Numbered from the stretch's first letter, positions 1,502-57,996 are shown. The stretch: 64,000 bases of DNA from a virus (IMGVR_UViG_3300048670_001104); one strand, 5' to 3'. Notes: generated from the letters alone by a model not told the origin. A program made the numbers and translations.

Positions 1502-1993
1502 TTATTTTTGGGTTAGGCCGCGTTCTATTTCGGCTGCTGCTACACGTCGTCGCAGACTTGAACTGGAGAATGAGTGATCGCGACCATTGAATACTAGTTC
1601 GATGCCTCGCGCATTACCTTCATGCCGGCCGGTGAATTGTTTGTTTTCGTATTCCACACCCAAGATACGCACATCCACGGGCAGGATCAACAGCAGATCC
1701 ACAAGGTCTTGCTCGGTCTGATACACCACAACTTCATCCACATAGCGACATGCAGCCAGTTGTATCTGGCGTTCCACTATGCTCTGCACCGGTGGATTCT
1801 TTTCTGTAGGACGATCTATGGTGGGATCAGTTTGCAAGCCTGCAATCAAGTAGTCGCAATGGTTCTTGGCGTCTGATAGCATGGCGATATGGCCAGCATG
1901 CAGCATGTCAAAGGTGGAGAAGGTAATGCCAATGCGTTTGCCCTCGGCCTTGAGCAGTTTGACATGATTGAAGATCAATTGTGCTGCATCCAA
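1502..1993 (-). CDS. cytidylyl/adenylyl-transferase (TagD / HldE domain-II-like nucleotidyltransferase)
   Basis: TFDMLHAGH (HxGH nucleotidyltransferase motif) followed by DYLIAG...ERQIQLAACRYVDEVVV. This pattern matches glycerol-3-P cytidylyltransferase and ADP-heptose synthase domain II. Confidence 0.7.
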   Translation of the reverse strand: MDAAQLIFNHVKLLKAEGKRIGITFSTFDMLHAGHIAMLSDAKNHCDYLIAGLQTDPTIDRPTEKNPPVQSIVERQIQLAACRYVDEVVVYQTEQDLVDLLLILPVDVRILGVEYENKQFTGRHEGNARGIELVFNGRDHSFSSSSLRRRVAAAEIERGLTQK

Positions 1994-20749: not shown

Positions 20750-20777
20750 ATTATACACTCACCAGTCGAATTTGCAA
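20750..20777 (-). promoter_or_regulatory. sigma70-type promoter TTGCAA-N16-TATAAT
   Basis: Plus strand gtgtattatacac ... tttgcaaacc. Upstream of the hydrolase gene. Confidence 0.55.
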
Positions 20778-35389: not shown

Positions 35390-35970
35390 CGAGTGGTTAT
35401 CACTTTGTCAGCCAGGCCATAGGCCACTGCTTCTTCCGCAGTCATAAAATTATCACGCTCCATGTCAGCTCGTAAAGTATCATATGATCGACCGGTGTGT
35501 GTGACATAGATATCAGTTAGAACTTTCTTCCAACGCAACAATTCGCGAGCTTGGATTTCCACATCTGTGGCCTGTCCTGATGCACCGCCCAAGGGTTGAT
35601 GGATCATGTGGCGTGCGTTGGGCAGGATATAGCGTTGGCCTTTGGCACCGGCGCTGGCCAACAACGAGCCCATCGATGCTGCTTGCCCCATAACAATGGT
35701 CATCACATCGGGCTTGATAAACTGCATGGTATCATAGATGGCCATGCCGGCTGTGACACTTCCACCCGGTGAATTGATATACAAGCTGATGGCTTTGTCA
35801 GGATTGTCTGCTTCCAAAAACAGCAACTGAGCGCACACCAGGCTGGCCGAGTGCCCATGCACTTCACCATCTAACATGATCACACGGTCGCGTAATAGCC
35901 GGCTGTAGATATCATAACTGCGTTCACCTTTGGAGGTTTGCTCGAGAACCATGGGCACTAGACTTGACAT
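35386..35970 (-). CDS. clpP: ATP-dependent Clp protease proteolytic subunit
   Basis: [26 protein letters not shown] aligns closely with mature E. coli ClpP. Ser-His-Asp triad context [14 protein letters not shown] present. AAGGAA RBS supports the start at 35970. Confidence 0.9.
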
Positions 35971-36947
35971 AATATTCCTTGTTTGATTTTGATCCACTGA
36001 TGTTGTACATGATCAGTGAAGTGATGTTTATTATATAGGATTTTCTCCTGTAGAGCAAGATATTTGGCTTGCCAATATTGAGGAGTCTGTTCGCACAGCA
36101 CTATCAAAAAGTCAGCAAGGTTGTCCGGCGTTGACAGATCCAAATCCGTGATGTCTCGGAAGTCGGTCACATAGGATTCGAATCCATGATCTCGCAACCA
36201 CTGTGTGCCGCCGTCGGGGTCATACACCAAGAATGGCCTGCATCCCACCACAGGCTTATAAATTTTTTCACTCACAAATCCTGTTCGATTGATATCATAA
36301 AATGTTTCTGTCACAATGTTTACAAAATGTCGTTGCCAATTCTCGATGTGTCCCAAACTCACTATGTCATTTGGTATACCATAGTGGTCTCGTGATGCAT
36401 TGGGTGCCAGATTGTCGTGATCTGTATCAACCACCAGAGATCTTGTGGCAGTTCCAGAACCACCCATGCTGACCATGCCGTGTTGCAACAGATCAAGAGA
36501 CTGCAATTCGTTGTAGAGTTTTTGCCGGTGCCAGTGTGGTTTACGATTCAAACACATGTAGGCTGTGTCGATCTTGGATGCATCGGTCAGTTGATCCAGG
36601 GCCGGTGCATTTAGAAATTTGTCCACAAACACAGCACAAAAATCCAAAGAGTGATCTCCAGGATAATATCCCACCGAGACAACTTCACAGTCAAACTCAT
36701 CGTACCAGTCTGGTCTAGGAATGGCAGCATCGATCATGGCCACCAGCACAATCCTATCCAGTTGATTGTTTCTCAACCAAGCCAACACCTGCTGATGATA
36801 TTCAGTGGAATACCAAACTGAATTTATTACCACAGTGCGACTGGTGTCTCGAGCCATGTGCTGCAACAGATCATCAACTATGCTTTGTTCAAACTGTTTA
36901 AGGGGCCAAACTGATCCCCATCCATTGTCAAATTTTTTGATAATCAT
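35958..36947 (-). CDS. glycosyltransferase, GT10 (fucosyltransferase)-like C-terminal motif
   Basis: NIVTETFYD...[21 protein letters not shown], compared with the FucT motif E(N/T)...TEK...A...G.VPVV.G. Paralog of 36928..37974 and 54705..56042. Confidence 0.55.
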
Positions 36948-37974
36948 GAGTTGTCAAATCAATCTGATGGGCACAAATCTTTTCAAGATGGCGGCGGTTG
37001 TACCGGGCAATTTCATGTGCCTGATCCAAAATCACATGTTGATCGCTGCGGCCGCGTTCCAACAGTGTGTTCATGCTTTTCCGCATGAGATGCCACCGTT
37101 CAGGGCCCTGATACAGGTCATAACTCTCATCCCAAATTTCATTATAGGTACGAAATCCCATACCACGCAATCTTGCAAGATAGTATCGCGGGCCGTAAAC
37201 CAGGATAGGTTTGGCAGCCATGAGTGGGCGAATGGTTTTTTCTGTAGGAAAAAAAGTATTGCCCTGTGTGTAGGTCTCACATACAATTTCCACAGCAAAC
37301 TGATCATAATATTGCAACAGACTGGCGTTGGTGTCGGCATATGACACAGGAGTGGCAAATTGATCTCTCACTGATTTAGAATCCACACTGGGTATGAGAC
37401 CTTTGTCAAACCAATCAAACATGTCCACTTGTTTATGCAGCGGTAACCAGTCAGATATGATGTCAAGATTACGCCGATGCTGATCAGACACCTTCCACGG
37501 AAATGGTTGTACATGTTGCATGAGACTGGCAAAAACTTGTGTGTGGATGGAACCGGTACCCGCAGGCATCAAGTTATACAGTATCGCTGCTCGGCTCATG
37601 GTCAATCGTCCGATGAATATGCCAAATGTTTGTTGATATTGTAATTGTTGTTCTAGGGTGGGTTCTGTGTGTTGCCAGTAATCTCGCACCATGGTAAAAA
37701 AATGGCTGAGGTCATTGCATGCAATTCGTCGATATGGCACGAATTCCACAGGATTGCTCCATCTCAACACATGCACAGTGTGCGGTGATTGTTGCCTATT
37801 TTTAAGCCAATCGTTTATCACTGCGGTGATGCCTAACAGTTCCAAGCTGGGCCCTTCGCTGCGTAGATCTAACACCAGTGGTTGTCCCTGGGGATGTTGA
37901 TTCAATTGCTGTTGGAATTGTGCTGGGTTGTTCCAGCAATCGCCATCAAATTCTACTGCTATGGGTTCTGTCAT
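36928..37974 (-). CDS. glycosyltransferase, GT10 (fucosyltransferase)-like C-terminal motif
   Basis: VEIVCETYTQGNTFFPTEKTIRPLMAAKPILVYGP...LRGMGFRTYNEIWDESYD. Confidence 0.55.
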   Translation of the reverse strand: MTEPIAVEFDGDCWNNPAQFQQQLNQHPQGQPLVLDLRSEGPSLELLGITAVINDWLKNRQQSPHTVHVLRWSNPVEFVPYRRIACNDLSHFFTMVRDYWQHTEPTLEQQLQYQQTFGIFIGRLTMSRAAILYNLMPAGTGSIHTQVFASLMQHVQPFPWKVSDQHRRNLDIISDWLPLHKQVDMFDWFDKGLIPSVDSKSVRDQFATPVSYADTNASLLQYYDQFAVEIVCETYTQGNTFFPTEKTIRPLMAAKPILVYGPRYYLARLRGMGFRTYNEIWDESYDLYQGPERWHLMRKSMNTLLERGRSDQHVILDQAHEIARYNRRHLEKICAHQIDLTTHDYQKI

Positions 37975-46543: not shown

Positions 46544-46567
46544 ACCACCAGTTTTTCTTCTTCCTGA

Positions 46568-46597
46568 CCCCACTTAAATATTAGTGGGGTTTATTTT
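46568..46597 (+). terminator. Rho-independent terminator (CCCCAC-ttaaatatta-GTGGGG + TTTATTTT)
   Basis: Perfect 6-bp GC stem followed by a T-tract. Confidence 0.7.
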
Positions 46598-46633
46598 GAC
46601 TAAAAAAAATAATAACAGGGAGAAAAACCTAGT

Positions 46634-46885
46634 ATGGCCAACATGGTATGGTCTATTGTCATCATCAGTGTAGGGGCTGTGTCCCCAGTTATACAACAGA
46701 TCGGAATCTTTCAGGATGAGGCAACTTGCCAAAGGAGCCTGACTGACCTTAAATCACAGACACCTGTTCAGCACAAAATGGTATGTGTGCAATATCCCGA
46801 GCCACCTCCCCCGCCTGCGCCGGCAAAACCTCCCCCACCTCCGCCACCTTCACAATCCACCAGTAGCAGGGATGCACGAAAATGA
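46634..46885 (+). CDS. small membrane/secreted protein with polyproline tract
   Basis: 83 aa. GGGAGA RBS. Confidence 0.45.
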   Translation: MANMVWSIVIISVGAVSPVIQQIGIFQDEATCQRSLTDLKSQTPVQHKMVCVQYPEPPPPPAPAKPPPPPPPSQSTSSRDARK

Positions 46886-47373
46886 TAGATCCGTTCACAG
46901 CCTTTGCCATAGCTCAGGCCGCGGTGGCCGGTATCAAAAAAGCCGTGCAACTGGGCAAAGATGTCAACGGCCTCATAAACGACTTCAGCAAATTCTATCA
47001 AGCAGCAGATGTGCTGCATCACTCTGCTACCAAGGCCAGGATAGAAAGCATACGCATGAGCACGGCGGAGATCAATGCCAAGGCTTTAGAAATGGCCATG
47101 GCGTCAAGAGCATTGAGAATACATGAAAAAGAACTCAAAGACATCTTGTTTTGGAGCGGCAACGCAGATGTTTACTATGAGATGCAGGCCGAACGCAAAC
47201 GCATGATGGAAGAGCGACAAGCTGAAGATCGGCGTGTGGCTGAGCAGAAGCAACGAGACCGAGAGATGAAATACAATGCCATGATGGCCACATTGTGGTT
47301 CATGGGTTCATTGTGTATCATAATACCCATCTGCACTATCCTATTTCAACTGATTACAGTGAAGCATCTGTAA
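46882..47373 (+). CDS. hypothetical membrane-anchored coiled-coil protein
   Basis: 163 aa. ATGA junction with the upstream gene. Confidence 0.5.
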   Translation: MIDPFTAFAIAQAAVAGIKKAVQLGKDVNGLINDFSKFYQAADVLHHSATKARIESIRMSTAEINAKALEMAMASRALRIHEKELKDILFWSGNADVYYEMQAERKRMMEERQAEDRRVAEQKQRDREMKYNAMMATLWFMGSLCIIIPICTILFQLITVKHL

Positions 47374-47401
47374 ATCAATAAATAAACTACAAGGAAATCA
47401 C

Positions 47402-48010
47402 ATGACCATATTAGAAACACTGCGTGAGCAACGCTGGGACGATCATCGCTATTACCATCACAGCCGTATCAATCAATTCTTACATTTACTCAGTGCGTTA
47501 TCATTCATCGTGGCCTATGTGTATCTGATCATCGATCCTGTGATCAGTGCTTACATCGCCTGGTTGTTCTCAATGACCACACGCCAAGCCGGACATTTCT
47601 TCTTTGAACCCACGGACTACGACACCTACAATCAGGCCACACAAGATCACAAAGAGGCTATCAAGATTGGATACAATCTCAAACGCAAACGAGTACTGAT
47701 CGCTTGCTGGTTGGCTGTGCCGTTGCTGGCATATTTTGATGCGGCATTGTTTAACTTTGTGATGCCTGATGCTGCTCCAGACACCTTGATAGATAGAATT
47801 GGCTGGGGTTGGTTGTGGTTGGGTCTGGCTGCTGTGGTGTTCCGTATGATACAACTCACTGCCATACAAAGCCGTAGAGTCGCACTAGTGTGGTGTATCA
47901 AGATATTAACAGATCCATTCCATGACGCTGTGATCTATCGCAAGAGCCCGATCTATTTGTTGCGTGGGCAACTGATTGATCCTGACCTACGCCAAGACTA
48001 CGAAGATTAA
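47402..48010 (+). CDS. membrane protein (possibly DUF962/Mpo1-like)
   Basis: 202 aa. HxxxxNxxxH-like N-terminal region and multiple TM helices. AAGGAAA RBS. ATAAATA 17 nt upstream. Confidence 0.45.
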   Translation: MTILETLREQRWDDHRYYHHSRINQFLHLLSALSFIVAYVYLIIDPVISAYIAWLFSMTTRQAGHFFFEPTDYDTYNQATQDHKEAIKIGYNLKRKRVLIACWLAVPLLAYFDAALFNFVMPDAAPDTLIDRIGWGWLWLGLAAVVFRMIQLTAIQSRRVALVWCIKILTDPFHDAVIYRKSPIYLLRGQLIDPDLRQDYED

Positions 48011-49005
48011 AGTGGAGTAAGGTTGTCGCGGAATATCTGCCAGGCAGTCTGCCACGACCAGCGTTGGCTACCCGCTAACACTTGATCTCTATCCAACTGC
48101 AAACAACCAGTTATGGCATCGGCCAGGTCTTCATTCACAAATCCTGTCACACCCTGATCCACCACATCCAGTGGTCCTTGCACCGGATAAGCAGCCACTG
48201 GTGTGCCACAGGCCATGGCTTCGATCATCACTATGCCAAATGTCTCCCACTTGCTAGGAAACACAAACACATCAGCATCAGCATAGCATTGTGCCAGTGC
48301 ATGGCCAGTCTTGAATCCTTTGAACTCCACATCGGGATATAGTTTTTCCAGTCTAGCACGATCCGGGCCGTCACCTACCAACACTTTGCGAGCACCCGGA
48401 TAATTCAAACTGCAAAACGCATCCAGATTCTTTTCTATACTGAGTCTGCACACACATAACAGCACAGGGCCCGATCCTCTGCTGCCACGATAACCAGGAT
48501 TGAATACGGTTCTATCAACGCCACGGGTCCATGAGTTGATCTCACCCCAGAAGCCATGAGCTCGGAGTTCTTTCACCATGCTGTCCGTGGTTGTGAGCAC
48601 ACGACCCGAGTGCTTGTGGAACCACCGCACATACTTCCAGGTGATGCTTTCAGGTATCCTCAAAAATTTATGTAAGGCTTCAGGGTACTTTGTATGGTAA
48701 GCAGTATTATACCTACGATAGTGCCGGTCAAGATAAAATCTAGCGTAGAGACCCAAAGGACCTTCTGTGGCGATGTGTATATAATCCGGAGCCATCGTTC
48801 TAATCTTCTGCCCGATCGCCCAGGGAATCGAAACTTTAACTTCAGGGTAGCCTGGGCAATCAAAAAATACGAACTCCATGGGAGTAAGATATAACACACG
48901 ATAGCCATCCAGAACCGCACATGCCTCAATATTCTTGTATGTGGTAACAACGCCATTGATCTGCTCCGGCAAGTTATCTGTTATTATCAGTATCGTCTTG
49001 ATCAT
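48007..49005 (-). CDS. glycosyltransferase family 1 (GT4-type)
   Basis: VFPSKWETFGIVMIEAMACGTPVAAYPVQG (E-x7-E-like GT1 signature region). Confidence 0.8.
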   Translation of the reverse strand: MIKTILIITDNLPEQINGVVTTYKNIEACAVLDGYRVLYLTPMEFVFFDCPGYPEVKVSIPWAIGQKIRTMAPDYIHIATEGPLGLYARFYLDRHYRRYNTAYHTKYPEALHKFLRIPESITWKYVRWFHKHSGRVLTTTDSMVKELRAHGFWGEINSWTRGVDRTVFNPGYRGSRGSGPVLLCVCRLSIEKNLDAFCSLNYPGARKVLVGDGPDRARLEKLYPDVEFKGFKTGHALAQCYADADVFVFPSKWETFGIVMIEAMACGTPVAAYPVQGPLDVVDQGVTGFVNEDLADAITGCLQLDRDQVLAGSQRWSWQTAWQIFRDNLTPL

Positions 49006-49795
49006 TTTCTCGGGTCCATGTAACTATTTCCCACCGACCATCATGATGCTCTACAAGTGCTGTACAACTTTCCACCCAGTCACCATCATTCATGTAGGTC
49101 ACGCCGTTGATGTCGCGGATCTCTGCATGGTGGATGTGACCGCATATGACACCATCATATCCACGCTTCTTGCAGTAGTTAGCGAGATTCTGTTCAAACT
49201 GGAAAATAAAATCCACTGCTTTTTTCACACGATGTTTTAGATATTTACTCAAACTCCAATACCCAAAACCTAGTTTGTGCCGCAGCCAGTTGAATCTGGT
49301 GTTCCATATCAGGATCATGTCATAGGCCGCATCGCCAAGAAAACTCAACCACGGTGCCAGTCTGGTGATGCCATCAAACATGTCGCCATGCACCACGAGA
49401 TAATGTCGACCATCAGCACCCGTGTGTTCAGTCTGATTGCATATCTCTATCAAGCCAAAATTAAATCCATATGGTATCATTGGGCGCAGGAATTCGTCGT
49501 GATTGCCTGCCACATAGATCACTCGTGTGCCGCGTTTGGCATGGCCCAGCACACGCCGCACCACATTGGTATGGCTCTGTTTCCAACGCCATTTGTTCTG
49601 TTGGATACGCCAAGCATCAATGATATCCCCCACTAGGTACAGGGTATCACAGGTGTTGTGTTTGAGAAAGTTGTTGAGTCGGTCGGCCTGGCAGTCTCTT
49701 GTGCCCAGATGCACATCACTGATTGCTATTGTTCTATATTTTTTTTGTTGTTTTATCATAAATAAAAGTGTAGTTCGCGGGCGTCCACTCCCCAA
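48974..49795 (-). CDS. metallophosphoesterase, LpxH-like (UDP-2,3-diacylglucosamine hydrolase family)
   Basis: IAISDVHLG, LYLVGDIID, AGNHDEF, GHIHH motifs. Confidence 0.7.
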   Translation of the reverse strand: MGSGRPRTTLLFMIKQQKKYRTIAISDVHLGTRDCQADRLNNFLKHNTCDTLYLVGDIIDAWRIQQNKWRWKQSHTNVVRRVLGHAKRGTRVIYVAGNHDEFLRPMIPYGFNFGLIEICNQTEHTGADGRHYLVVHGDMFDGITRLAPWLSFLGDAAYDMILIWNTRFNWLRHKLGFGYWSLSKYLKHRVKKAVDFIFQFEQNLANYCKKRGYDGVICGHIHHAEIRDINGVTYMNDGDWVESCTALVEHHDGRWEIVTWTRENDQDDTDNNR

Positions 49796-49825
49796 CTACT
49801 CTAACGCTATAAGGAGCAATCAGTA

Positions 49826-50479
49826 ATGAGTATTTATAAAGAGATTCGTTACAAAAATATTAGGCTCAATGGGTATTACATCTATGCATATTTAAGAAAA
49901 GATGGCACACCTTACTATGTAGGTAAGGGGCAACAATACAGAGCATGGATGAATCACAGAGTCAATAATAAAGGAGTCCATACTCCTAAAGATATAGACC
50001 GTGTAATCATTATGGAGCAAGATTTATCCGAAGTAGGAGCGTTTGCATTAGAACGCAGATATATTCGCTGGTACGGCAGAAAGGATGTAGGCACAGGTAT
50101 ACTACATAATAGGACAGACGGTGGCGAAGGTGGATCAGGTGCAAGTGCCGGCAAGGCTCGTCCCGGGGAACTTAACGGAATGTATGGAAAGAGGCGGCTA
50201 CCAGAACTCATTGCCAAAGCAGTTGCCGCTTCGGTATTAAATTTAAAAGGTAAAACTTACGAGGAAATATACGGATTAGAAAAAGCCGCTAAACTAAGAA
50301 AACAGAGATCTGATTCCTTAAAGGGGAAAAAGAAATCTCCTGAACATGCCGCTAAATCTAAAGCCAACGGTATGAAGGGTGCTCTAAAGATTGGTGCCGC
50401 TCGTAAAGGCAAGACTTGGGATGAAATCTACGGCAAAGAAAAAGCCGACGAAATAAGAGCACTCCGACGGCTTAAATGA
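49826..50479 (+). CDS. GIY-YIG homing endonuclease (seg-like) with NUMOD-type DNA-binding repeats
   Basis: [20 protein letters not shown] (GIY...YIG), R, E, N catalytic residues. C-terminal repeats G(K/M)..S.EH..K.S.A..G. AAGGAG RBS. Confidence 0.85.
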
Positions 50480-51505
50480 TTACAACTCCAACCACCGACG
50501 ATGCAGTTGATCAGTGGCCAAGTTCTTGCCCTTGGCTTCGACCTGGATATCCCAATCTTCACTAAAGGTCAATGCCCAGTCAGTCACAGCTGAGTTCCAA
50601 AGAAAGTCCGAATGTGCTCGAAGTTTCTGTTTACGGTATCCCCGGTCAAGTAGTTGTGCGAGATCAGGTCGAGTTCCGGGATCGTGATCAACCAGAATAT
50701 CTTCACGGCTAACACTATAGTGAAGTGCAGGACGAGTACCGCGCCAAGACTCCACAACACGACGCGCCCTAGAGTCCGAGGGGGTGATGTATTCACCGGT
50801 GTTGATCCAGTGGTGGTGGATGTCCAGCGTAAGAGCACAATGCTCAGCCACAGCCAAAGTAACGTCGATACCATTTGTCATCTCATCATTCTCGATAGCG
50901 ATTAGATTCCTGGCTTCGGGTGTGAGTCGACCCAAAGTCTGCAGGAATTTAGCGGGGCCACCTTTACCGCTCAAATGCACATTTATCTTGAAACCGTGAT
51001 CATGCCAGCCAGCGCCATAGCCCATCCAACGAGCCATGTCTGCATGATATTCAAACTCTAGTATGCTGCGTTCAACGATCTCATCAGATTCCGACGCCAA
51101 CACACAGAACTGTCCAGGGTGGAAACTCAGCCGTACACCAAGACGACGAGCAGCCTCGCCCACAGGAGCAAATATCCGTTCGCAGTGGTCTTGGATTTCT
51201 GTTCGTTGCCACCAGTCGATCCAGGATGGTTCAGTGTAGCCTTGCAGCATTTCTGAACCTAGCCGGACCATACGGCGTTCTGGTGCCATTGCACCCACAC
51301 GCTCTACCATCATCAACGCAGCACGAGCATTGTGGTTCATGATGTCCCACTGACGCTGGTCGGCTTCTTCCTTGTGTTCGCGTAGCCAACGCATTGTGGT
51401 GCTTCTGCCGTTGATATCACGGTCCACAGCATTCACCTTCATACCGCCGCATTCATTAGGGTCGTTAAGCCACTTGCAGCAAAATCCGAATCGAGCCATG
51501 ATCAT
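50480..51505 (-). CDS. UV damage endonuclease UvdE/UvsE-like
   Basis: MIMARFGFCC, SFHPGQF, LDIHHHW, DIQVEAKGKNLA align with B. subtilis UvsE landmarks. Confidence 0.72.
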   Translation of the reverse strand: MIMARFGFCCKWLNDPNECGGMKVNAVDRDINGRSTTMRWLREHKEEADQRQWDIMNHNARAALMMVERVGAMAPERRMVRLGSEMLQGYTEPSWIDWWQRTEIQDHCERIFAPVGEAARRLGVRLSFHPGQFCVLASESDEIVERSILEFEYHADMARWMGYGAGWHDHGFKINVHLSGKGGPAKFLQTLGRLTPEARNLIAIENDEMTNGIDVTLAVAEHCALTLDIHHHWINTGEYITPSDSRARRVVESWRGTRPALHYSVSREDILVDHDPGTRPDLAQLLDRGYRKQKLRAHSDFLWNSAVTDWALTFSEDWDIQVEAKGKNLATDQLHRRWLEL

Positions 51506-52056
51506 GTACCGTTGTTGTTGTTACCTAGTAATTGTAACACATTTGGCAATAGATCTCTAGTGATATTGGAGAGTTTTTGGATGGGTTCGGCAAGATCGGT
51601 GTGATGATCTACGATCACCCATTGCTTACCGCTGAGTTCTATAGCGTTGGCCAGGATACCGATGTAGTTGTTTCTGCTTGGTGAGGGCGTGGTTTTTGCT
51701 TCCAGATCAAATCCTACCATGAGTATCACATCTGCTACACTAGCAACTAAATGTGTGGCTATGATGTCGTCAACCGAATCCACTGCAAAATCAAAAACTC
51801 CACCAAATGCTCGCACACCCACCGGCCGGTCTAACTGTTGATAAACAATTTCGGGTATGTAGAGATTACAGGTCTTGGCGTAGCCTTGACGGCACAATTT
51901 CTCTGCCTGTTCCGGATTCCAACATACCACATTGTCGGATTGGTAACTTCTTTGTGTGCGCCAACTACCCCAGATGGGTGCAAGATCCCGTATGGCCTGC
52001 ACTGGTGTAGTAGGCGGTAATACTGTATTTTCTGCAAACAACCATGCTATGTTCAT
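51502..52056 (-). CDS. hypothetical protein
   Basis: 184 aa. ATGA junctions on both sides. Confidence 0.5.
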   Translation of the reverse strand: MNIAWLFAENTVLPPTTPVQAIRDLAPIWGSWRTQRSYQSDNVVCWNPEQAEKLCRQGYAKTCNLYIPEIVYQQLDRPVGVRAFGGVFDFAVDSVDDIIATHLVASVADVILMVGFDLEAKTTPSPSRNNYIGILANAIELSGKQWVIVDHHTDLAEPIQKLSNITRDLLPNVLQLLGNNNNGT

Positions 52057-52970
52057 GCTTCTCTATGTAGATCCAAAGTAACGCAATGGAATCCACCACC
52101 CAAGGTCCTGCTGTGACGCAGTTGCATGGGTATCACTGTGAACTGGTTCTTTTCTAATAAGCTGATCAACATGGGTTGATCTTTATCCACGATCACTGTG
52201 TGAGGATTCACTACCAACATATTTAATGCTATCCATTTTGATGCATATGGGTACTGAAAGAATCCTTGTTCTTCCACGTGGTTGCAGTAGATCACTTCCC
52301 AGTCTTTGAGCGATTGAGGTAAGTTGTCGGGTGTCACACGACTGCCGTTGACCAGCACAAGACCTTCACGCAGTGGCACTATGGTTGAATCAATATGCAC
52401 ACCCGAATAGAAGTTAACTAATTCAATATCAACCGTAGGGAAATGCTTGCACATCCATTCATAAGCAGCCCGATTGCCCGAGGACGATTCTAAATAAATC
52501 CACTTATCATTTAGCCTAGCGATGTTGGCAGCATCCAAGGTCATTCCTTCGTGGCGAGGCATGAATAGATAGTTGGTGGCTGCATCCACGACATCGTGAT
52601 AGCATTGCAGTTCCATGTCTCTGCAGGGATACATCATGGCAGGATTCACTATGGTGTCGCCGTAAACCAACAGTCGATCTCTTGGACAATAGTTATACAT
52701 GCCATCATGTGCTTGGAAATTGAAATCATCTGGGCGGAACACTTCCACATTCAACGATTTCAGCAAGCCAACCAATTGATCAAGATCCTCGTTGGCCTCT
52801 GCAATAATCCAGTCTGGAACCGGTCCCGACGGCACAGGTGTATCTTTCCATAGTGTGCGTTCTTTTTCTAGTGCAAATACCGGATCATTTACCGGCCAGT
52901 TGGCGTGATCGGCACGCCCCACTACCGCGGATCGCAACGGATCCCATTCGTTATAACTGTGGATTTTCAT
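52053..52970 (-). CDS. amidinotransferase family protein
   Basis: C-terminal LGGGFHCVTLDLHR (catalytic Cys motif of the amidinotransferase / arginine deiminase superfamily). Confidence 0.68.
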   Translation of the reverse strand: MKIHSYNEWDPLRSAVVGRADHANWPVNDPVFALEKERTLWKDTPVPSGPVPDWIIAEANEDLDQLVGLLKSLNVEVFRPDDFNFQAHDGMYNYCPRDRLLVYGDTIVNPAMMYPCRDMELQCYHDVVDAATNYLFMPRHEGMTLDAANIARLNDKWIYLESSSGNRAAYEWMCKHFPTVDIELVNFYSGVHIDSTIVPLREGLVLVNGSRVTPDNLPQSLKDWEVIYCNHVEEQGFFQYPYASKWIALNMLVVNPHTVIVDKDQPMLISLLEKNQFTVIPMQLRHSRTLGGGFHCVTLDLHREA

Positions 52971-53488
52971 ACAGTTCCGGTTAGTTGTAATGTGTATCTA
53001 TTGGTTTGACCCATGTTGGCCGCCAGGTGCAAAAAGTCATCGTGCCATGATACCCAATCTCCGGCACGCCATCCTGTGACCGGAGTTCCGTTCATTTCTA
53101 GGTAGTGGCCGCTGGACCAGTCTTCCAGGAATACTATGGTCCTCACCACCGAATGTGTAGTTTCCAATCCATGTATCAGCTTGAATCTATCATAGGTATC
53201 TCTATGTGCAGGTAACACACAGCCCGGTATCATGCGATAGAAACTCCATGAGAATCTTTCAAACGGGAATACATCGCGAAATGAGTCTACCCAGGTAGGT
53301 TCACTGTTACGCATGTCATACATGTCTCCGGTGAATCTACTTTGAGAGAAGCCTAACCTACGCCATTCTGTGAGACTGGAAGAGTCGTTGAATGGTTCGT
53401 TGATGTAGGCTAGATCTCTGTGCCCGAGACCCCACCAAGGATCCACGTGCCCCTGTGCCCAGGTGTTATTTTGCGCGGGTGTTACCAT
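52967..53488 (-). CDS. hypothetical protein (cupin/hydroxylase-like, tentative)
   Basis: LPAHRDTYD...H spacing reminiscent of HxD...H metal sites. Confidence 0.4.
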   Translation of the reverse strand: MVTPAQNNTWAQGHVDPWWGLGHRDLAYINEPFNDSSSLTEWRRLGFSQSRFTGDMYDMRNSEPTWVDSFRDVFPFERFSWSFYRMIPGCVLPAHRDTYDRFKLIHGLETTHSVVRTIVFLEDWSSGHYLEMNGTPVTGWRAGDWVSWHDDFLHLAANMGQTNRYTLQLTGTV

Positions 53489-54704
53489 AGTGGATCACGG
53501 TTAACCCGGCCATGTCACCGAGTTTGCGCCATGGATCAACAATTATAGAACCCTGGGGAATTGTGCAATAGGGTTGTGTTTCGGGTTGATCACCGGTGTA
53601 CTCATATGTGATCTTGCGATCATGTGCCCACAGTATCACCGCTGGTCCAGTCAAATCTGTGACCACATCTGTAGGATCATCTGCCAATGGATCAAGATAC
53701 CGCACCTCAAATCCGGCTTGTTTCACATAATGTCCGACTAGGGTAGAGTATGATCCAATGCAGTAAGGAACATCGGGCTTGTAGGCCTTACCATGTATCA
53801 CTATGCCTAATGCATGTTGTCGAGCATGACCAATCAGGAATTCGGCTAGATTCCGTGCCTGGATCTCTCTGGCATGCATCACAGTATCAAACAAGTCGTA
53901 TCCGATATTGTATTCTTTTGCCAACCAACGCAGAGCAATGTTATCACGAGGGTGACAAGCGCCTGCATCACCCATGCCTGCTGTCATGTATTTGGGTCCC
54001 ATGATTCTCATGGTGCTACGTGACAGTGCATTTGTGACCACATCCACATTGATATTACCGATCCGCATGGCAAAATCTTGAATCATGTTTACCAAGCCCA
54101 CTTTGGCCGAGATGAACGTGTTATAGAAGATCTTCACAGCTTCGCATTCGTCCCAGGTGCCGATTTCATAGCGTGGGTCGTTCTGCATCACAGTATCGTA
54201 CAAATCCTTGAGTTCGCCTGCTATACCATTCCAGTCACCGTCCTCTGTACCAATCATGATCATTTCCGGATTGACCATGTCCCACTTGACCGATCCCATG
54301 GCAATGAGATAGGGGTTATATAAGAACTGATGTTTTGAGTCCAACAATGGCACAAAATGTTTACGTGTGGTACCCGGCAATACAGTGCTGATCAGTACCA
54401 CTTTCTTAGAATCACGTGCATGAGTGTTGACCTTGTTGATGGCATCAATCACTGCTGCATGACCAAAGTCTCGAGGTTCCATATGGCTGGACGGAACCGA
54501 TCCGTCATAGCCATCGGCATGTGGAGTTGGTACAGCAATAAAAATCCATTCGCTTTCGTTAACCAATTCATCGATATCGCAAACTTTTACCAAGTCACTC
54601 ACACGCGGGTAAATATCATAGCCTCTGACTTCGTGCTTCTCTGCCATGACTTCGGCGCAATCAAGTCCTAGCTTACCGATACCAATAAAACCAATTTTCT
54701 TCAT
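53466..54704 (-). CDS. nucleotide-sugar (UDP-glucose/GDP-mannose type) dehydrogenase
   Basis: N-terminal Rossmann KIGFIGIGKLG. Catalytic Cys context GDAGACHPRDNIAL. AAAGGAA RBS. Confidence 0.75.
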   Translation of the reverse strand: MKKIGFIGIGKLGLDCAEVMAEKHEVRGYDIYPRVSDLVKVCDIDELVNESEWIFIAVPTPHADGYDGSVPSSHMEPRDFGHAAVIDAINKVNTHARDSKKVVLISTVLPGTTRKHFVPLLDSKHQFLYNPYLIAMGSVKWDMVNPEMIMIGTEDGDWNGIAGELKDLYDTVMQNDPRYEIGTWDECEAVKIFYNTFISAKVGLVNMIQDFAMRIGNINVDVVTNALSRSTMRIMGPKYMTAGMGDAGACHPRDNIALRWLAKEYNIGYDLFDTVMHAREIQARNLAEFLIGHARQHALGIVIHGKAYKPDVPYCIGSYSTLVGHYVKQAGFEVRYLDPLADDPTDVVTDLTGPAVILWAHDRKITYEYTGDQPETQPYCTIPQGSIIVDPWRKLGDMAGLTVIHYGNTRAK

Positions 54705-56042
54705 ATGAACATTCCTTTAGATAATCTGTATCACTGGATACAAGGACTGGCTCAGCATCCTGTGATACTTTATGTATTCCACCCGCATGGCAGCAAAGAT
54801 ATTTCTGATCTAAAACCATTATATGAAATTAGTAATGAGATGTATTTAAAGCACTGCATGATCCCACAAATTGTGTGCCATGATCAAGAACCATTGGATT
54901 ATGCCAGTCATGAGTGGGATCATGATCTAGAAAGAATTTCTGCATGGTACTCGACCTTAAAATACGGTCGGGGCCATGGTAGACCGGACACTGGCACTAA
55001 ATTAAAAATGTTTCTTTTCTTTATTAAAGATCCTGCACTGAGTTGCGGACTTACATATCTCGGAGTCAATCAGTGGGACTGTGATTGGGTCGTGCTGCTG
55101 CATAGTGAAATCAACAGTGATGACGTAGAGAAATTTTCTCATAAAAAATTCCTTCCTGTTTATTACTGGTGCCATGCTGTGTTGGCTAGAGATTGGTATA
55201 GATTTGCCCAGCATGATGTTCGATTGCATCAAAAAAATATAAAAAAAACGTTCTTGGTCTATTGCAGAGATTGGACTCCCATAAGAGAATACCGATTGAA
55301 ATTTCTTGATCTATTGTTGGCTGCCAATCTATTGGATGATTGCAAGATCAGTACACAACACACAAACAGTCAAGGGGTGCATCTCAAAGACTATCAAATA
55401 CAGGACCCACGATTTGTGGTGGACACAGCACAATTACTATCCATACCCGATAACAATGCTCCGGCCACTGCCAGTGCCGACTATGACGCAGACGATTTTG
55501 TATCAACTGCTGTCAGTGTGGTGTTAGAAACTGTGGTGGATTCAAAGATACACCTGACAGAAAAAATACTCAGAGCCATTGCGTGTGGGCATGGCTTTGT
55601 GCTTGTGGCAGGACCGGAATCGCTGGCCTACTTGAGGAGATATGGATTTCGTACTTTTGGCACAGTGTTTGATGAAAGCTACGATACAGAAAAAGACACT
55701 GTGAAAAGATTAGAAAAAGTCATAGCGACCATGCAACAGATCAAGAATCTGTCAGAGTCAGACTGGCAAGAAATCAACGAGATAGCAGCACACAATCGGT
55801 CACGATTCTTCAGTGAGGATTTTGCTAACCAAGTACTCGACGAGTTAAAATCCAATCTTGATCCCGCAGTTGAATTCTGCATGAACAATCGCGGCAAACT
55901 AAATTGGGAATCAAGGAAGACCGCAAGAAAACACGGCCTGGGCAAACTTCTATCTCATGATATAAAAGCAAAAAATACCATGATAGAATTTAGAAAACAA
56001 AGATTATCTCGGAATCGCACCGGTCCAGGAATCATCAAGTGA
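54705..56042 (+). CDS. glycosyltransferase, GT10 (fucosyltransferase)-like (third paralog)
   Basis: VETVVDSKIHLTEKILRAIACGHGFVLVAGPESLAYLRRYGFRTFGTVFDESYD. Start codon abuts the divergent dehydrogenase start (cat|atg). Start uncertain. Confidence 0.5.
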   Translation: MNIPLDNLYHWIQGLAQHPVILYVFHPHGSKDISDLKPLYEISNEMYLKHCMIPQIVCHDQEPLDYASHEWDHDLERISAWYSTLKYGRGHGRPDTGTKLKMFLFFIKDPALSCGLTYLGVNQWDCDWVVLLHSEINSDDVEKFSHKKFLPVYYWCHAVLARDWYRFAQHDVRLHQKNIKKTFLVYCRDWTPIREYRLKFLDLLLAANLLDDCKISTQHTNSQGVHLKDYQIQDPRFVVDTAQLLSIPDNNAPATASADYDADDFVSTAVSVVLETVVDSKIHLTEKILRAIACGHGFVLVAGPESLAYLRRYGFRTFGTVFDESYDTEKDTVKRLEKVIATMQQIKNLSESDWQEINEIAAHNRSRFFSEDFANQVLDELKSNLDPAVEFCMNNRGKLNWESRKTARKHGLGKLLSHDIKAKNTMIEFRKQRLSRNRTGPGIIK

Positions 56043-56357
56043 CTGTGTTTTTAGATTTTGTATTCTCTGCTGCAACTCACTGTAGAATGAGTCCAGTTCG
56101 GTACCCCACCGACCTTGAAGGTGGCCAATGGCATCTTCACAATATTTCCAATTGCGTTTTCGGTATTCTCGCATGAGATTCTCATGCAGATCTTGATAGT
56201 GAGGCAAATTGGTCATTTCTAACAATGGAATCTTCTCCACTATGGCATACGCAGTGGCTGTTTGATCTCGGTCTTCAATCAAAAAAGTATCCAGTTCTAG
56301 CACAGTGTATTTTTCTCTGGCCAGTTCGGCCACATTGTCTCCAAATATTATGTTCAT
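56004..56357 (-). CDS. hypothetical protein
   Basis: 117-aa ORF. Overlaps the 3' end of the plus-strand GT gene by 39 nt. Confidence 0.4.
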   Translation of the reverse strand: MNIIFGDNVAELAREKYTVLELDTFLIEDRDQTATAYAIVEKIPLLEMTNLPHYQDLHENLMREYRKRNWKYCEDAIGHLQGRWGTELDSFYSELQQRIQNLKTQSLDDSWTGAIPR

Positions 56358-56381
56358 TGCGTTTCCTTTTAAATATGTATC

Positions 56382-57185
56382 ATGATTATTGCATTTGACT
56401 TAATTTCTGATTTACATCTGGACACCTGGCCTGAAGAATTTAACTGGAGCGGACAACCTACCAGCCCAGTTTGCATAGTGGCCGGAGACATCAGTTCTGA
56501 TCCCAGAGTGGTGAGAAACTGCCTTAAGCATCTTGCCAACTGTTATGCGGCTGTGTTCTATATCGACGGCAACGACGAACATAAATTTAGATTTCATCAA
56601 CTGGGAGAGAGCTACCGAGACCTAGCCAGAGGAATAGGTCGATTGCCCCGCGTGACATATCTCCAGGACAATGTGATTGTGATAGATGGTGTGGCCATAA
56701 TCGGTACCAATGGATGGTGGGGATACGACCTAGATGAAACCATTGATAGAGATCATTCCAAACAACACATGGTTGATTGGTACGCCAAGATACAGCCCGA
56801 TCATGAAATTGATCCTGAAGTGATAAGTGATCTTTCTCGTAAAGATGCAGCATATCTCATTAGCACTGTACAACGGTTACAAACACACAATGATGTGAAA
56901 AAGATAGTGGTTGTTACTCATACAGTGCCCGGTGCAAATTTAATCCAACACGATATAGAATTATCAGGCACCACACAATTCAATCACATGGGCAATAGAC
57001 TCATGCATCTGGTGCATACCAATGATACTGAACGCAAAATCCATACCTGGTGCTTTGGTCATTATCACGGCAGTGTGAATCAGTACATCAATGGAATACA
57101 TTTTGTCAACAACTGTAGAGGGCGCGGAGACACCCCTTACAACCAAAATCCTTATTTTCCCAAACGCATCACTATAGAGACCTGA
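56382..57185 (+). CDS. calcineurin-like metallophosphoesterase
   Basis: DLHLD, AGDI, GNDEH, GHYHG motifs. Confidence 0.7.
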   Translation: MIIAFDLISDLHLDTWPEEFNWSGQPTSPVCIVAGDISSDPRVVRNCLKHLANCYAAVFYIDGNDEHKFRFHQLGESYRDLARGIGRLPRVTYLQDNVIVIDGVAIIGTNGWWGYDLDETIDRDHSKQHMVDWYAKIQPDHEIDPEVISDLSRKDAAYLISTVQRLQTHNDVKKIVVVTHTVPGANLIQHDIELSGTTQFNHMGNRLMHLVHTNDTERKIHTWCFGHYHGSVNQYINGIHFVNNCRGRGDTPYNQNPYFPKRITIET

Positions 57186-57494
57186 TCACTTGGAATCAGG
57201 TTCTAGTTTGATCTGCAATGGGTATTCTTGCTCTCGAGCACTGGCAGTGACTTCTGTGCCTTTTTGCTCGGCAATCTCAAAAGGCAGCACAGCCACTGTG
57301 GCTTGACCGTGCTCATGGATACCCACTGTGAGTTGCGTGGCAGTTTCTACTGTGTAATCAAAAAACTCCACCAAACTGCCTACCACAAATTCCATTGTGG
57401 TGGTGTTGTCGTTGATATAGATCACACGATAAAGAGGCGGCTCTTTGACGGCTTTTTTTGTTCGAGTAATAGTTGCTGCTTCTGCGTTTGACAT
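57186..57494 (-). CDS. clpS: Clp protease adaptor ClpS
   Basis: KEPPLYRVIYINDNTTTMEFVVGSLVEFFDYTVETATQLTVGIHEHGQATVAV matches the ClpS core. Start at the Met preceded by GAGGA. Confidence 0.85.
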   Translation of the reverse strand: MSNAEAATITRTKKAVKEPPLYRVIYINDNTTTMEFVVGSLVEFFDYTVETATQLTVGIHEHGQATVAVLPFEIAEQKGTEVTASAREQEYPLQIKLEPDSK

Positions 57495-57509
57495 AGTGGT
57501 CCTCATGGA

Positions 57510-57549: not shown

Positions 57550-57996
57550 TTACGAATTGTAAGCAATCGCAATACTCTTTGGCTTGGCTGACTCAGGAAC
57601 TTCACGTTCCAGCAGCACAGTCAAGATACCATCACGAATGGCAGCACCTTTCACTTCCACATGCTCAGCAAGCGGAAATGTCTGTTTGAAATCTCTAGCA
57701 GAGATTCCACGGTGCAGATATTCGTGTTCTTGGTCTTTTTCAGTTTTCTTGGCACCTGTAATGGTGAGCAAGCGTTGATCAAGACTGATATCAATTTCGC
57801 CTTCAGCAAATCCAGCCACAGCCACTTCAATGGTCACGGTGTGATCACCGGTCTTGATCACATTGTGAGGTGGGTAGTTGGTTGAACTTTGAGTCTGTGT
57901 GACACGCTGTAGGTCGGTGAACAGATCGTCAAAACCAATACCAAATTTGTTGAATGCGGGGATATCGAAGGCACGAAGGTGCAGAGTTTTTGTCAT
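57550..57996 (-). CDS. small heat-shock protein Hsp20 (IbpA-like)
   Basis: YPPHNVIKTGDHTVTIEVAVAGFAEGEIDISLDQRLLTITGAK...YLHRGISARDF matches the alpha-crystallin domain. AAGGAG RBS. Confidence 0.85.
   Translation of the reverse strand: MTKTLHLRAFDIPAFNKFGIGFDDLFTDLQRVTQTQSSTNYPPHNVIKTGDHTVTIEVAVAGFAEGEIDISLDQRLLTITGAKKTEKDQEHEYLHRGISARDFKQTFPLAEHVEVKGAAIRDGILTVLLEREVPESAKPKSIAIAYNS

What the first reader, a model, noticed from the sequence alone, without database searches (positions are those of the whole stretch)
48007..57185. Surface-glycan / LPS-modification gene cluster in a phage genome
About 9 kb encodes a GT1 glycosyltransferase, an LpxH-like metallophosphoesterase, an amidinotransferase (GGGFHCVTLD), a cupin-like protein, a nucleotide-sugar dehydrogenase, a GT10-like glycosyltransferase and a second metallophosphoesterase. 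Two more GT10-like paralogs sit at 35958..37974 and a TagD/HldE-like sugar nucleotidyltransferase at 1502..1993. This looks like a pathway that synthesises and transfers a modified sugar, possibly amidino- or uronic-acid-containing. Its purpose could be host LPS/capsule remodelling (superinfection exclusion) or glycosylation of the phage's own fibers. The fibers are extremely rich in N-x-T/S sequons, though that may only reflect their Asn/Thr-rich composition.
Basis: inference. Interest (0 to 1): 0.68.

Follow-up and report, generated by a model that had tools for sequence, protein, structure and literature searches.

The report
Phage lipid-renovation and sugar-modifying gene mosaic
The supposed single "LPS-modification pathway" in this freshwater jumbo phage is a mosaic of separate modules, one of which looks like a bacterial phosphate-starvation system that swaps membrane phospholipids for sugar lipids and is routinely mislabelled as a lipid A enzyme in phage genomes.

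Summary

- **PlcP-Agt pair (48007-49795, minus strand).** The "LpxH-like" esterase and the "GT1" enzyme match the bacterial lipid-renovation operon (55% and 42% identity to the P. aeruginosa PA3219/PA3218 locus). In 79 of 80 viral contigs the esterase has a glycosyltransferase downstream. PstS sometimes sits alongside.
These are a GIY-YIG homing endonuclease, a UvdE UV-damage endonuclease and a 184-aa Maf/MptE-fold protein.
- **Core sugar module.** It comprises a nucleotide-sugar 6-dehydrogenase, a divergent fast-evolving GT-B glycosyltransferase, a small Fe/2-oxoglutarate oxygenase and a StrB1-like amidinotransferase. These are gained and lost together across relatives. Their acceptor is unknown.

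An LPS target is not shown. DNA and virion-protein targets remain open. The fibre sequon excess is largely compositional. I found no paper in the held library describing viral plcP. Interest is moderate to high.

The parts
48007..49005 (-). Agt-like GT4 glycosyltransferase (332 aa), probably a diacylglycerol glycosyltransferase
   Evidence: Pfam Glycos_transf_1 and Glyco_transf_4. 42.4% identity over 96% to the glycosyltransferase immediately downstream of the PlcP homologue in P. aeruginosa, the PA3218/Agt1 locus. H104, T160-R161, W318/W322 and the CRLSIEKN motif fit the Agt/GTcp clade. FPSKWETFG carries Glu where that clade has Asp.
48974..49795 (-). PlcP-like metallophosphoesterase, a phospholipase C of lipid renovation. 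The likely true start is the ATG at 49759 (about 261 aa).
   Evidence: 55.5% identity over 94% to P. aeruginosa WP_003091510.1, the PA3219 locus. All metallophosphoesterase motifs are present. It fails the LpxH equivalog cut-offs and scores only 22-24 bits against LpxH structures. A glycosyltransferase lies downstream on the same strand in 79 of 80 viral contigs.
49826..50479 (+). GIY-YIG homing endonuclease, a mobile insert in the slot where several relatives carry pstS
   Evidence: phrog_314 3e-8 and phrog_15526 8e-18. Absent from L006 and L009, and from 76 of 80 related loci. PstS lies between UvdE and PlcP in L014, L015 and L016.
50480..51505 (-). UvdE-type UV-damage endonuclease
   Evidence: PF03851 6.6e-27, phrog_8420 2e-67. 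PDB UVDE 3tc3 and 2j6v at 1e-15 to 1e-13, with HPGQ[F/Y] and IEND motifs. Follows the 184-aa gene in 75 of 80 loci.
51502..52056 (-). 184-aa protein with a Maf/MptE (DUF115)-like fold, either a CMP-sugar-type glycosyltransferase or a pyrophosphokinase
52053..52970 (-). StrB1-like L-arginine amidinotransferase (305 aa)
   Evidence: PDB 1bwd E 6.8e-61. SxtG, HsvA and AGAT at about 1e-27. D146/H192/C296 triad. More than 7000 metagenomic homologues.
52967..53488 (-). Small Fe(II)/2-oxoglutarate oxygenase (173 aa, cupin fold)
   Evidence: PF05118 23.5 bits against a cut-off of 22.6. H95-x-D97...H154...R164-x-T166 conserved in at least 95% of 54 homologues. Paired with the amidinotransferase in cyanophage S-SCSM2R as well.
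53466..54704 (-). Nucleotide-sugar 6-dehydrogenase (412 aa)
   Evidence: PF03721 and PF00984, phrog_9148 3e-85, TIGR03026 137 bits against a cut-off of 190. GxGxxG and Cys250 present. 55% and 49% identity to Bellamy gp227 and HTVC008M gp162.
54705..56042 (+). Fast-evolving GT-B glycosyltransferase of an undescribed phage family (445 aa), divergent from the dehydrogenase with no intergenic base
56004..56357 (-). 117-aa acidic ORF of unknown function, conserved beside the GT-B gene
   Evidence: Present in 45 of 80 related loci. No family hit.
56382..57185 (+). Second metallophosphoesterase (267 aa), substrate unknown
   Evidence: phrog_1649 7e-25, TIGR03729 44.7 bits against a cut-off of 148. 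DxH, GDxxD, GN(D)EH and GHxH motifs read in the sequence. Present in 36 of 80 loci.
35958..37974 (-). Two paralogues of the GT-B family (329 and 348 aa)
   Evidence: BLASTP 4e-4 and 6e-9 against 54705-56042, with a shared ET...[TS]EK..RP motif.

Best explanation
The 9-kb stretch is an accessory-gene mosaic of a freshwater jumbo phage distantly related to PA5oct. It is not a single glycan pathway, and it has four parts.

(1) A PlcP-Agt lipid-renovation cassette (48007-49795, minus strand). The metallophosphoesterase cleaves host phospholipids to diacylglycerol plus a phosphorylated head group. The GT4 enzyme then glycosylates the diacylglycerol with a UDP-sugar to make a phosphorus-free glycolipid. 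This would free phosphorus for phage DNA synthesis in phosphate-poor water. The family assignment is shown by homology and synteny. The activity and the benefit to the phage are inferred.

(2) A homing endonuclease inserted where several relatives carry pstS.

(3) A UvdE repair endonuclease with a Maf/MptE-fold partner of unknown role.

(4) A co-inherited set of four genes: a nucleotide-sugar 6-dehydrogenase, a divergent fast-evolving GT-B transferase, a 2OG oxygenase and a StrB1-like amidinotransferase. I infer that the dehydrogenase supplies an NDP-uronic acid that the GT-B enzyme transfers. I infer that the oxygenase and amidinotransferase tailor either the acceptor or the sugar, by hydroxylation and by amidino transfer from arginine. 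The acceptor is not identified. The dehydrogenase might also supply UDP-glucuronate to Agt for glucuronosyl-diacylglycerol.
For: PlcP-Agt cassette.
- 55.5% and 42.4% identity to an adjacent gene pair in P. aeruginosa, in the same order.
- I identify that pair as PA3219/PA3218. It has the esterase-then-glycosyltransferase operon described by Jones 2021, it is followed by an adenylate cyclase, which I take to be cyaB/PA3217 (that gene number is from memory), and it fails the LpxH models itself.
- PA3219 is only 46-47% identical to other validated PlcPs, and Agt1 is 41% identical to the Phaeobacter Agt (PMC8528852). The phage proteins therefore sit within the family range.
- plcP-agt and plcP-pgt operons are the bacterial norm (PMC4796936). 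Of 80 IMG/VR contigs with the esterase, 34 have a GT4 and 45 a GT2/GT21-like gene downstream on the same strand.
- PstS is adjacent in L014-L016 and in 8 of 80 contigs, replaces the pair in L006, and is the divergent neighbour in pelagiphage Mosig.

Separateness of the modules.
- Only 5 of 80 esterase loci lie near the amidinotransferase.
- Six loci lack the amidinotransferase, oxygenase, dehydrogenase and GT-B genes together but keep the 184-aa gene and UvdE.

Sugar module.
- The dehydrogenase and GT-B start codons abut.
- A BFVD protein appears to fuse the two domains.
- Amidinotransferases are flanked by glycosyltransferases in three phage lineages.
Against: - No enzyme activity is shown.
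- The phage Agt-like proteins have Glu where the Agt/GTcp clade has Asp256. D256E cut GTcp activity by more than 90% (PMC8231724).
- No Pho box occurs in the window, though none is expected for phage promoters.
- The dehydrogenase is missing from 28 of 80 related loci, so it is dispensable to the module.
- Bacterial homologues of the amidinotransferase (36-40% identity) sat in NRPS or ATP-grasp contexts in the two loci inspected, and none co-occurs with homologues of the window's sugar genes.
- Conserved synteny within one phage lineage may reflect descent rather than function.
- The dehydrogenase-GT fusion rests on one Foldseek row whose sequence I could not read.
Confidence: 0.6

Rival explanations
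1. All genes from 48007 to 57185 act in one pathway that builds a modified sugar and attaches it to host LPS or capsule. This would remodel the cell surface, for example for superinfection exclusion.
Against: The esterase-GT4 pair is an independent cassette homologous to PlcP-Agt. UvdE and a homing endonuclease interrupt the set. No aminotransferase, flippase, polymerase, ligase or lipid-carrier transferase is present in the finding. The esterase fails the LpxH models. All the enzymes lack membrane segments.
Confidence: 0.15
2. The right-hand module hypermodifies phage DNA. The GT-B enzyme and its paralogues glycosylate a hydroxymethylated or otherwise modified base, using a uronic acid from the dehydrogenase. 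The amidinotransferase converts an amino-bearing base side chain to a guanidino group. UvdE and the 184-aa protein would be DNA-facing partners.
Confidence: 0.12
3. The right-hand module modifies virion proteins such as fibres. The oxygenase hydroxylates residues, the GT-B and Maf-like enzymes glycosylate them, and the amidinotransferase converts lysines to homoarginine.
Against: The fibre sequon excess is weak (z about 2.3). No collagen-like repeats occur in the window. The 425-aa ORF has no PDB or Pfam match and only one weak PHROG hit of unknown function, and it is absent from this window.
Confidence: 0.15
4. The amidinotransferase, oxygenase and glycosyltransferases make a small guanidino glycoside or aminocyclitol-like metabolite during infection. 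This could be an antibiotic-like or signalling compound.
For: The closest characterised enzyme is StrB1 of streptomycin biosynthesis. In the two bacterial loci inspected, homologues at 36-40% identity sit beside an NRPS-like gene or ATP-grasp ligases with an exporter. A RimK-type ATP-grasp gene lies between PlcP and Agt in some relatives. The authors of S-SCSM2R proposed 'antibiotic synthesis genes'.
Against: No cyclitol synthase, aminotransferase or exporter is present in the finding. Two unrelated phage lineages place the amidinotransferase beside glycosyltransferases.
Confidence: 0.08

Closest known systems
PlcP-Agt lipid-renovation pathway of phosphate-starved bacteria (S. meliloti SMc00171; Phaeobacter MED193_17359; SAR11 PB7211_983/960; P. 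aeruginosa PA3219/PA3218/PA0842)
   Same: A metallophosphoesterase sits directly upstream of a GT4 glycosyltransferase. Identity to the P. aeruginosa pair is 55% and 42%. All esterase metal motifs are present. His104, Thr-Arg and Trp of the Agt clade are present. PstS is a neighbour in several relatives. GT2/GT21-like partners in other phages mirror the bacterial plcP-pgt arrangement.
   Different: The genes are encoded by a virus. No Pho box was found. The catalytic acid is Glu254 rather than the clade's Asp256. Some relatives have a RimK-type ATP-grasp gene between the two. No activity has been tested.
LpxH (UDP-2,3-diacylglucosamine diphosphatase of lipid A synthesis)
   Same: Same metallophosphoesterase superfamily. 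It is the nearest named model in NCBIfam and PDB, and the label given by JGI and GenBank annotation.
   Different: Scores are 41.5 bits against a cut-off of 134 and 30 bits against 190. Scores against LpxH structures are 22-24 bits. The P. aeruginosa homologue also fails the LpxH models, and from my own knowledge it is a different gene from the true LpxH (PA1792).
StrB1 (L-arginine:inosamine-phosphate amidinotransferase) and the AGAT/SxtG/HsvA amidinotransferases
   Same: Pentein fold, the Asp-His-Cys triad, and E 6.8e-61 to StrB1.
   Different: It is about 40 residues shorter than StrB1. The acceptor is unknown. It is paired with a small 2OG oxygenase and flanked by glycosyltransferases rather than cyclitol genes.
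Sugar ('LPS') gene clusters of T4-like cyanophages and pelagiphages (Bellamy gp212-228, HTVC008M gp156-164, S-SCSM2R ORF301-310)
   Same: The dehydrogenase is 49-55% identical. The 2OG oxygenase plus amidinotransferase pair is shared with S-SCSM2R. The genes are embedded among glycosyltransferases, and no function has been tested in any of them.
   Different: There is no carbamoyltransferase, methyltransferase or epimerase here. A NadE gene exists in the window but lies 33 kb away. The GT-B family is different, and the phage lineage is PA5oct-like rather than Kyanoviridae.
GT10 alpha1,3-fucosyltransferases and T4 DNA beta-glucosyltransferase (fold neighbours of the 445-aa protein)
   Different: No sequence-profile match to GT10 or to BGT. 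The spacing of the motif differs (10-12 residues rather than 9). It belongs to a large phage-specific family without a Pfam model.

Membership tests
PlcP (lipid-renovation phospholipase C) | Metallophosphoesterase metal-binding motifs intact | tested here: met
   DxH (26-29), GDxxD (56-60), GNHD (97-100), HGD (135-138) and GHxH (219-222) are invariant across the phage and P. aeruginosa sequences.
PlcP (lipid-renovation phospholipase C) | Closer to a validated PlcP than to LpxH | tested here: met
   55.5% identity over 94% to the P. aeruginosa PA3219-locus protein. Only 22-24 bits against LpxH structures. Validated PlcPs are themselves 46-47% identical to one another. Identifying the plasmid-record gene as PA3219 rests on operon structure and neighbours, not on an accession match.
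PlcP (lipid-renovation phospholipase C) | Operon with a glycolipid glycosyltransferase directly downstream | tested here: met
   In the window there is a 32-nt overlap with the GT4 gene. 79 of 80 viral contigs have a GT4 or GT2 gene downstream on the same strand.
PlcP (lipid-renovation phospholipase C) | Link to phosphate stress | tested here: inconclusive
   PstS is adjacent in L014-L016, in 8 of 80 contigs and in pelagiphage Mosig, and it replaces the pair in L006. No Pho box occurs in the window. Expression was not tested.
PlcP (lipid-renovation phospholipase C) | Mn-dependent hydrolysis of phospholipid to diacylglycerol | not testable with these tools
   This needs an enzyme assay or lipidomics.
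LpxH | Reaches the curated equivalog score | tested here: not met
   NF003743 gives 41.5 bits against 134. TIGR01854 gives 30 bits against 190.
Agt/GTcp clade of GT4 (diacylglycerol glucosyl/glucuronosyl transferase) | About 334 aa with His104, Thr162-Arg163, Trp320 and the GRVAxEKN motif | tested here: met
   The protein is 332 aa with H104, T160-R161, W318/W322 and CRLSIEKN. It is 42.4% identical to the P. aeruginosa Agt1-locus protein.
Agt/GTcp clade of GT4 (diacylglycerol glucosyl/glucuronosyl transferase) | FPSxTDTFG motif with catalytic Asp256 | tested here: not met
   The phage proteins read FPS[KR]WETFG, with Glu254. P. aeruginosa Agt1 reads FPSLTDTYG.
GT10 fucosyltransferase (54705-56042 and paralogues) | Match to the GT10 sequence profile | tested here: not met
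   Glyco_transf_10 was not listed in a Pfam scan run at E up to 5, although HMMER's filters drop most matches above about 0.1. The NCBIfam scan at E up to 0.01 and the PDB sequence search gave no relevant hit.
GT10 fucosyltransferase (54705-56042 and paralogues) | GT-B fold with a FENS....Y.TEK-type donor motif | tested here: inconclusive
Amidinotransferase (StrB1/AGAT) | Sequence similarity plus the Asp-His-Cys catalytic residues | tested here: met
   1bwd at E 6.8e-61, with D146, H192 and C296 aligned to the corresponding motifs (DAAN, H-x-DSTIVPL, GGGFHC) of StrB1.
Nucleotide-sugar 6-dehydrogenase (UGDH/GMD family) | NAD-binding and central domains with the catalytic Cys | tested here: met
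   PF03721, PF00984, GxGxxG and Cys250 in GACHPRD. TIGR03026 is below its cut-off (137 against 190) and the Pfam C-terminal domain was not detected, so the substrate is open.
Fe(II)/2-oxoglutarate oxygenase | HxD...H facial triad plus RxS/T 2OG-binding motif | tested here: met
   H95, D97, H154, R164 and T166 are conserved in at least 95% of 54 homologues. PF05118 is just above its cut-off.
UvdE UV-damage endonuclease | Family profile and active-site motifs | tested here: met
   PF03851 gives 94.9 bits against a cut-off of 24. HPGQF and IEND align to solved UVDEs. TIGR00629 is below its cut-off (76.5 against 124).
Maf/MptE (DUF115) fold, 184-aa protein | Fold similarity; no sequence-family match | tested here: inconclusive
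T4-type DNA glycosyltransferase system | A base hydroxymethylase or other source of a glycosylatable base in the same genome | not tested
   Only 64 kb is available and not every ORF was scanned. None was seen among those scanned. Full contigs of relatives could not be read.

The most novel reading that the evidence does not exclude
Abundant freshwater and some marine phages carry a complete, mobile phosphate-stress lipid-renovation cassette: PlcP with an Agt- or Pgt-type glycosyltransferase, sometimes with PstS, a fatty-acid desaturase and a UDP-sugar dehydrogenase. With it they would convert host phospholipids into glycolipids during infection and divert the released phosphorus to virion DNA. 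This would be a class of auxiliary metabolic gene not yet described, hidden under the label 'LpxH'. Beside it, the same phages carry an uncharacterised amidinotransferase, oxygenase and GT-B module that would make a guanidino-decorated glycoconjugate of a kind I do not know from any virus.
Probability: 0.4. Interest if true: 0.72.

Novelty: new variant of a known kind. Interest (0 to 1): 0.6.

Why it matters
Phosphate-stress genes such as pstS and phoH are, as I recall from the cyanophage literature, textbook examples of how phages reprogram their hosts.

A virus-encoded pathway that dismantles host phospholipids and replaces them with sugar lipids would add membrane lipids to that list. It would also change how lipid-based phosphorus budgets in lakes and oceans are read.

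The gene is very common. At least 568 viral contigs carry it in IMG/VR. All 8000 candidates scored in the metagenome protein search were significant, and the 120 listed were 78-93% identical. It is routinely annotated as a lipid A enzyme, so annotation pipelines currently mislead.

The neighbouring amidinotransferase module is equally widespread. It has no characterised counterpart, so it is a defined target for enzymology.

Tried and rejected
- DNA similarity to isolated phages gave nothing at megablast level.
- tRNA, promoter, terminator and Pho-box scans were uninformative.
- A protein search with the amidinotransferase returned only near-identical phage copies and no distant context.
- The scan of bacterial genomes for amidinotransferase relatives showed no co-occurrence with the oxygenase, dehydrogenase or GT-B genes, apart from mis-binned phage contigs. 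Bacterial context therefore did not reveal the acceptor.
- I tested whether CP220 gp085 or HTVC008M gp163 are homologues of the 173-aa oxygenase. They are not, by BLASTP.
- I considered the weak Mpo1-like hit of ORF 47402-48010 as a link to the P. aeruginosa locus, which also has an Mpo1-like gene. I rejected it: there is no similarity and no conservation in relatives.
- The 425-aa ORF found in relatives has no PDB or Pfam match and only one weak PHROG hit of unknown function.
- Collagen-like repeats, as a possible substrate for hydroxylation and glycosylation, are absent from the window.
- The first alignment used for the viral scan was too divergent and had to be trimmed.
- The paper on PlcP mutagenesis (PMC6052262) is not held in the library.

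Full report
**Setting.** The window comes from a large T4-like phage. Its clamp loader (324-1247) is 51% identical to that of the jumbo Pseudomonas phage PA5oct. No isolated phage matches at DNA level. Proteins identical or nearly identical to those in the finding occur on freshwater metagenome contigs of up to about 350 kb. The window also encodes tail fibres, ClpP, ClpX, ClpS, Hsp20, a NadE NAD synthase and a DNA methyltransferase.

**Checking the observation.** I scanned every ORF of the finding against Pfam, PHROGs, NCBIfam and PDB sequences.

- a GT4 glycosyltransferase;
- a metallophosphoesterase whose nearest named model is LpxH;
- a strong StrB1-like amidinotransferase (E 6.8e-61, with the Asp-His-Cys triad);
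- a cupin that is really a small Fe(II)/2-oxoglutarate oxygenase (H95-x-D97...H154...R164-x-T166, conserved in at least 95% of 54 homologues);
- a nucleotide-sugar 6-dehydrogenase with its catalytic cysteine;
- a second metallophosphoesterase.

The two upstream ORFs at 35958-37974 are true paralogues of the 445-aa protein. The ORF at 1502-1993 is HldE/TagD-like.

The N-x-S/T sequon excess in the fibres is weak. It reaches z of about 2.3-2.4 in two ORFs and is absent in three.

**The left end is a PlcP-Agt cassette.** The esterase fails both LpxH equivalog models (41.5 against 134 bits, and 30 against 190).

A search of the plasmid collection showed it is 55.5% identical to a P. aeruginosa protein. 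The gene immediately downstream of that protein is 42.4% identical to the window's GT4 enzyme. That bacterial pair also fails the LpxH models. It is followed by an adenylate cyclase gene and matches the PA3219-PA3218 operon described by Jones et al. [quoted passage not shown] Validated PlcPs are only 46-47% identical to each other, so the phage protein falls inside the family range.

The order plcP then agt, or plcP then pgt, is typical of marine bacteria (PMC4796936). The window's GT4 protein has nearly the length of SAR11 GTcp (332 against 334 aa). It has His104, Thr-Arg at 160-161, Trp318/322 and an xRxxxEKN motif. However, it carries Glu where that clade has the catalytic Asp256 (PMC8231724).

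In IMG/VR at least 568 contigs carry a relative of the esterase. Among the best 80, 79 have a glycosyltransferase downstream on the same strand (34 GT4 and 45 GT2/GT21-like). Of the 73 contigs with at least 1.2 kb of downstream sequence, 67 have it directly adjacent, and three more have it after a RimK-like gene.

PstS lies next to the pair in L014-L016 and in 8 of 80 contigs. It takes the place of the pair in L006. It is the divergent neighbour of the homologue in pelagiphage Mosig. In the window, the homing endonuclease occupies the slot where several relatives have pstS.

I conclude that this pair is a self-contained lipid-renovation cassette. My best guess is that it releases phosphorus from host phospholipids. 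Four full-text searches found no paper that links plcP to phage genes. That is a limited search and does not prove novelty.

**The right-hand module.** Eighty diverse viral loci carrying a relative of the 184-aa gene gave the following co-occurrence counts:

| Gene | Loci out of 80 |
|---|---|
| UvdE | 75 |
| Amidinotransferase | 71 |
| 2OG oxygenase | 68 |
| GT-B (445-aa family) | 62 |
| Dehydrogenase | 52 |
| 117-aa ORF | 45 |
| Second esterase | 36 |
| PlcP-like esterase | 11 |
| GT4 | 3 |

Six loci have lost the amidinotransferase, oxygenase, dehydrogenase and GT-B genes together but keep the 184-aa gene and UvdE. The four enzymes therefore behave as one unit, and the other two genes as another.

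The dehydrogenase and GT-B genes are divergent, with abutting start codons. One viral protein in BFVD appears to fuse the two domains. This suggests that the transferase uses the dehydrogenase product.

The GT-B protein is only 58% identical between the window and L006, where the neighbouring enzymes are 90-95% identical. That fits a protein that contacts a variable partner.

The oxygenase-amidinotransferase pair recurs in cyanophage S-SCSM2R. The amidinotransferase alone recurs in Campylobacter phage CP220. In both it sits beside glycosyltransferases. Bacterial homologues at 36-40% identity do not co-occur with the window's sugar genes, and the two loci I inspected were NRPS-like and ATP-grasp contexts.

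The 184-aa protein folds with high confidence (pLDDT 96). It resembles the Maf flagellin glycosyltransferase domain and MptE-type pyrophosphokinases.

**What the target might be.** Nothing in the sequence identifies the acceptor.
- The LPS or capsule reading lacks a lipid-carrier transferase, flippase, polymerase or ligase.
- DNA modification is a serious rival. The evidence is the T4 BGT fold match, the modified guanine of PA5oct (PMC12191111) and the SP-15 precedent for a dehydrogenase proposed to act in DNA hypermodification (PMC5977210). However, the fold scores do not discriminate, and I saw no source of a glycosylatable base among the ORFs I scanned.
- Virion-protein modification is suggested by the Maf and POGLUT matches, by a 425-aa ORF inside the operon of most relatives, and by amidinotransferase found in the S-SCSM2R virion proteome.
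- A small guanidino metabolite cannot be excluded.

**Verdict.** The interpretation as one LPS-modifying pathway is only partly supported. The most useful outcome is the re-identification of the 'LpxH plus GT1' pair as a widespread viral PlcP-glycosyltransferase cassette. The second outcome is the delineation of a conserved amidinotransferase, oxygenase, dehydrogenase and GT-B unit whose chemistry is open.

Noticed in passing
window 49826-50479 (+): The GIY-YIG homing endonuclease sits exactly where related phages (L014, L015, L016) carry pstS, between UvdE and PlcP. Its stop codon abuts the UvdE stop codon. It has two NUMOD-like KGKT(Y/W)(E/D)EIYG repeats at the C-terminus.
   Followed up: partly
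window 54704/54705: The dehydrogenase (minus strand) and the GT-B gene (plus strand) start on adjacent bases. There is no intergenic space, so both promoters must lie inside the partner's coding sequence. Both N-termini are conserved, so the starts look real.
   Followed up: partly
window 20759-21607 (-): A NadE NAD+ synthase passes its curated cut-off (TIGR00552, 167 against 64 bits). Cyanophage Bellamy and pelagiphage HTVC008M have NadE-like genes right next to their dehydrogenase homologues, but here it lies 33 kb away.
   Followed up: partly
window 24570-25562 (-); 30459-31343 (-): An N6/N4 DNA methyltransferase (PF01555, 9e-38) and a third metallophosphoesterase.
   Followed up: no
window 35386-35997, 57186-57506, 57550-57996, 58352-59557 (all -): The phage encodes ClpP, ClpS, an Hsp20 small heat-shock protein and ClpX, which is a near-complete protein-quality-control set. 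ClpS, Hsp20 and ClpX are syntenic in all the relatives I inspected.
   Followed up: no
window 45812-48010 (+): Four consecutive small predicted membrane proteins lie just upstream of Agt. One has a long proline run (PPPPPAPAKPPPPPPPS). ORF 47402-48010 has a weak Mpo1-like hit that did not hold up.
   Followed up: partly
window 61606-62304 and 62315-63115 (-): A Bax-inhibitor-1 family membrane protein (PF01027, 1.5e-54) lies next to an SPFH/Band 7 protein. This is an unusual pair for a phage.
   Followed up: no
L027 6727-8004, L023 6709-8004: Most relatives have an extra 425-431-aa ORF between the amidinotransferase and the 184-aa gene. It looks fibre-like by eye but has no informative family match. 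It is absent from the window.
   Followed up: partly
L027 9790-12063 and 12363-14789: One relative carries two further amidinotransferase paralogues (379 and 352 aa, with the catalytic GGIHC kept). These are followed by a fatty-acid desaturase, PlcP and a GT2 gene.
   Followed up: partly
L093-L097, L163 (GTDB MAG contigs): Contigs carrying this phage module are binned into MAGs of Terrimicrobiaceae, Haliscomenobacter, Bacteroidetes, Legionella and Pseudobdellovibrionaceae. The inconsistency suggests binning contamination rather than host information.
   Followed up: no
L173 (513-kb contig NODE_15, ERZ2680843): A different, very large phage-like contig carries the same PlcP-Agt pair near a fatty-acid desaturase, rubrerythrin and rubredoxin genes, a tryptophan halogenase-like gene and a GP38 adhesin.
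   Followed up: no
PlcP-like proteins in the metagenome protein database: The esterase is unusually conserved. The 120 listed homologues, out of 8000 significant ones, are all 78-93% identical, and they come from what appear to be different phage lineages. This suggests strong constraint or recent spread.
   Followed up: partly
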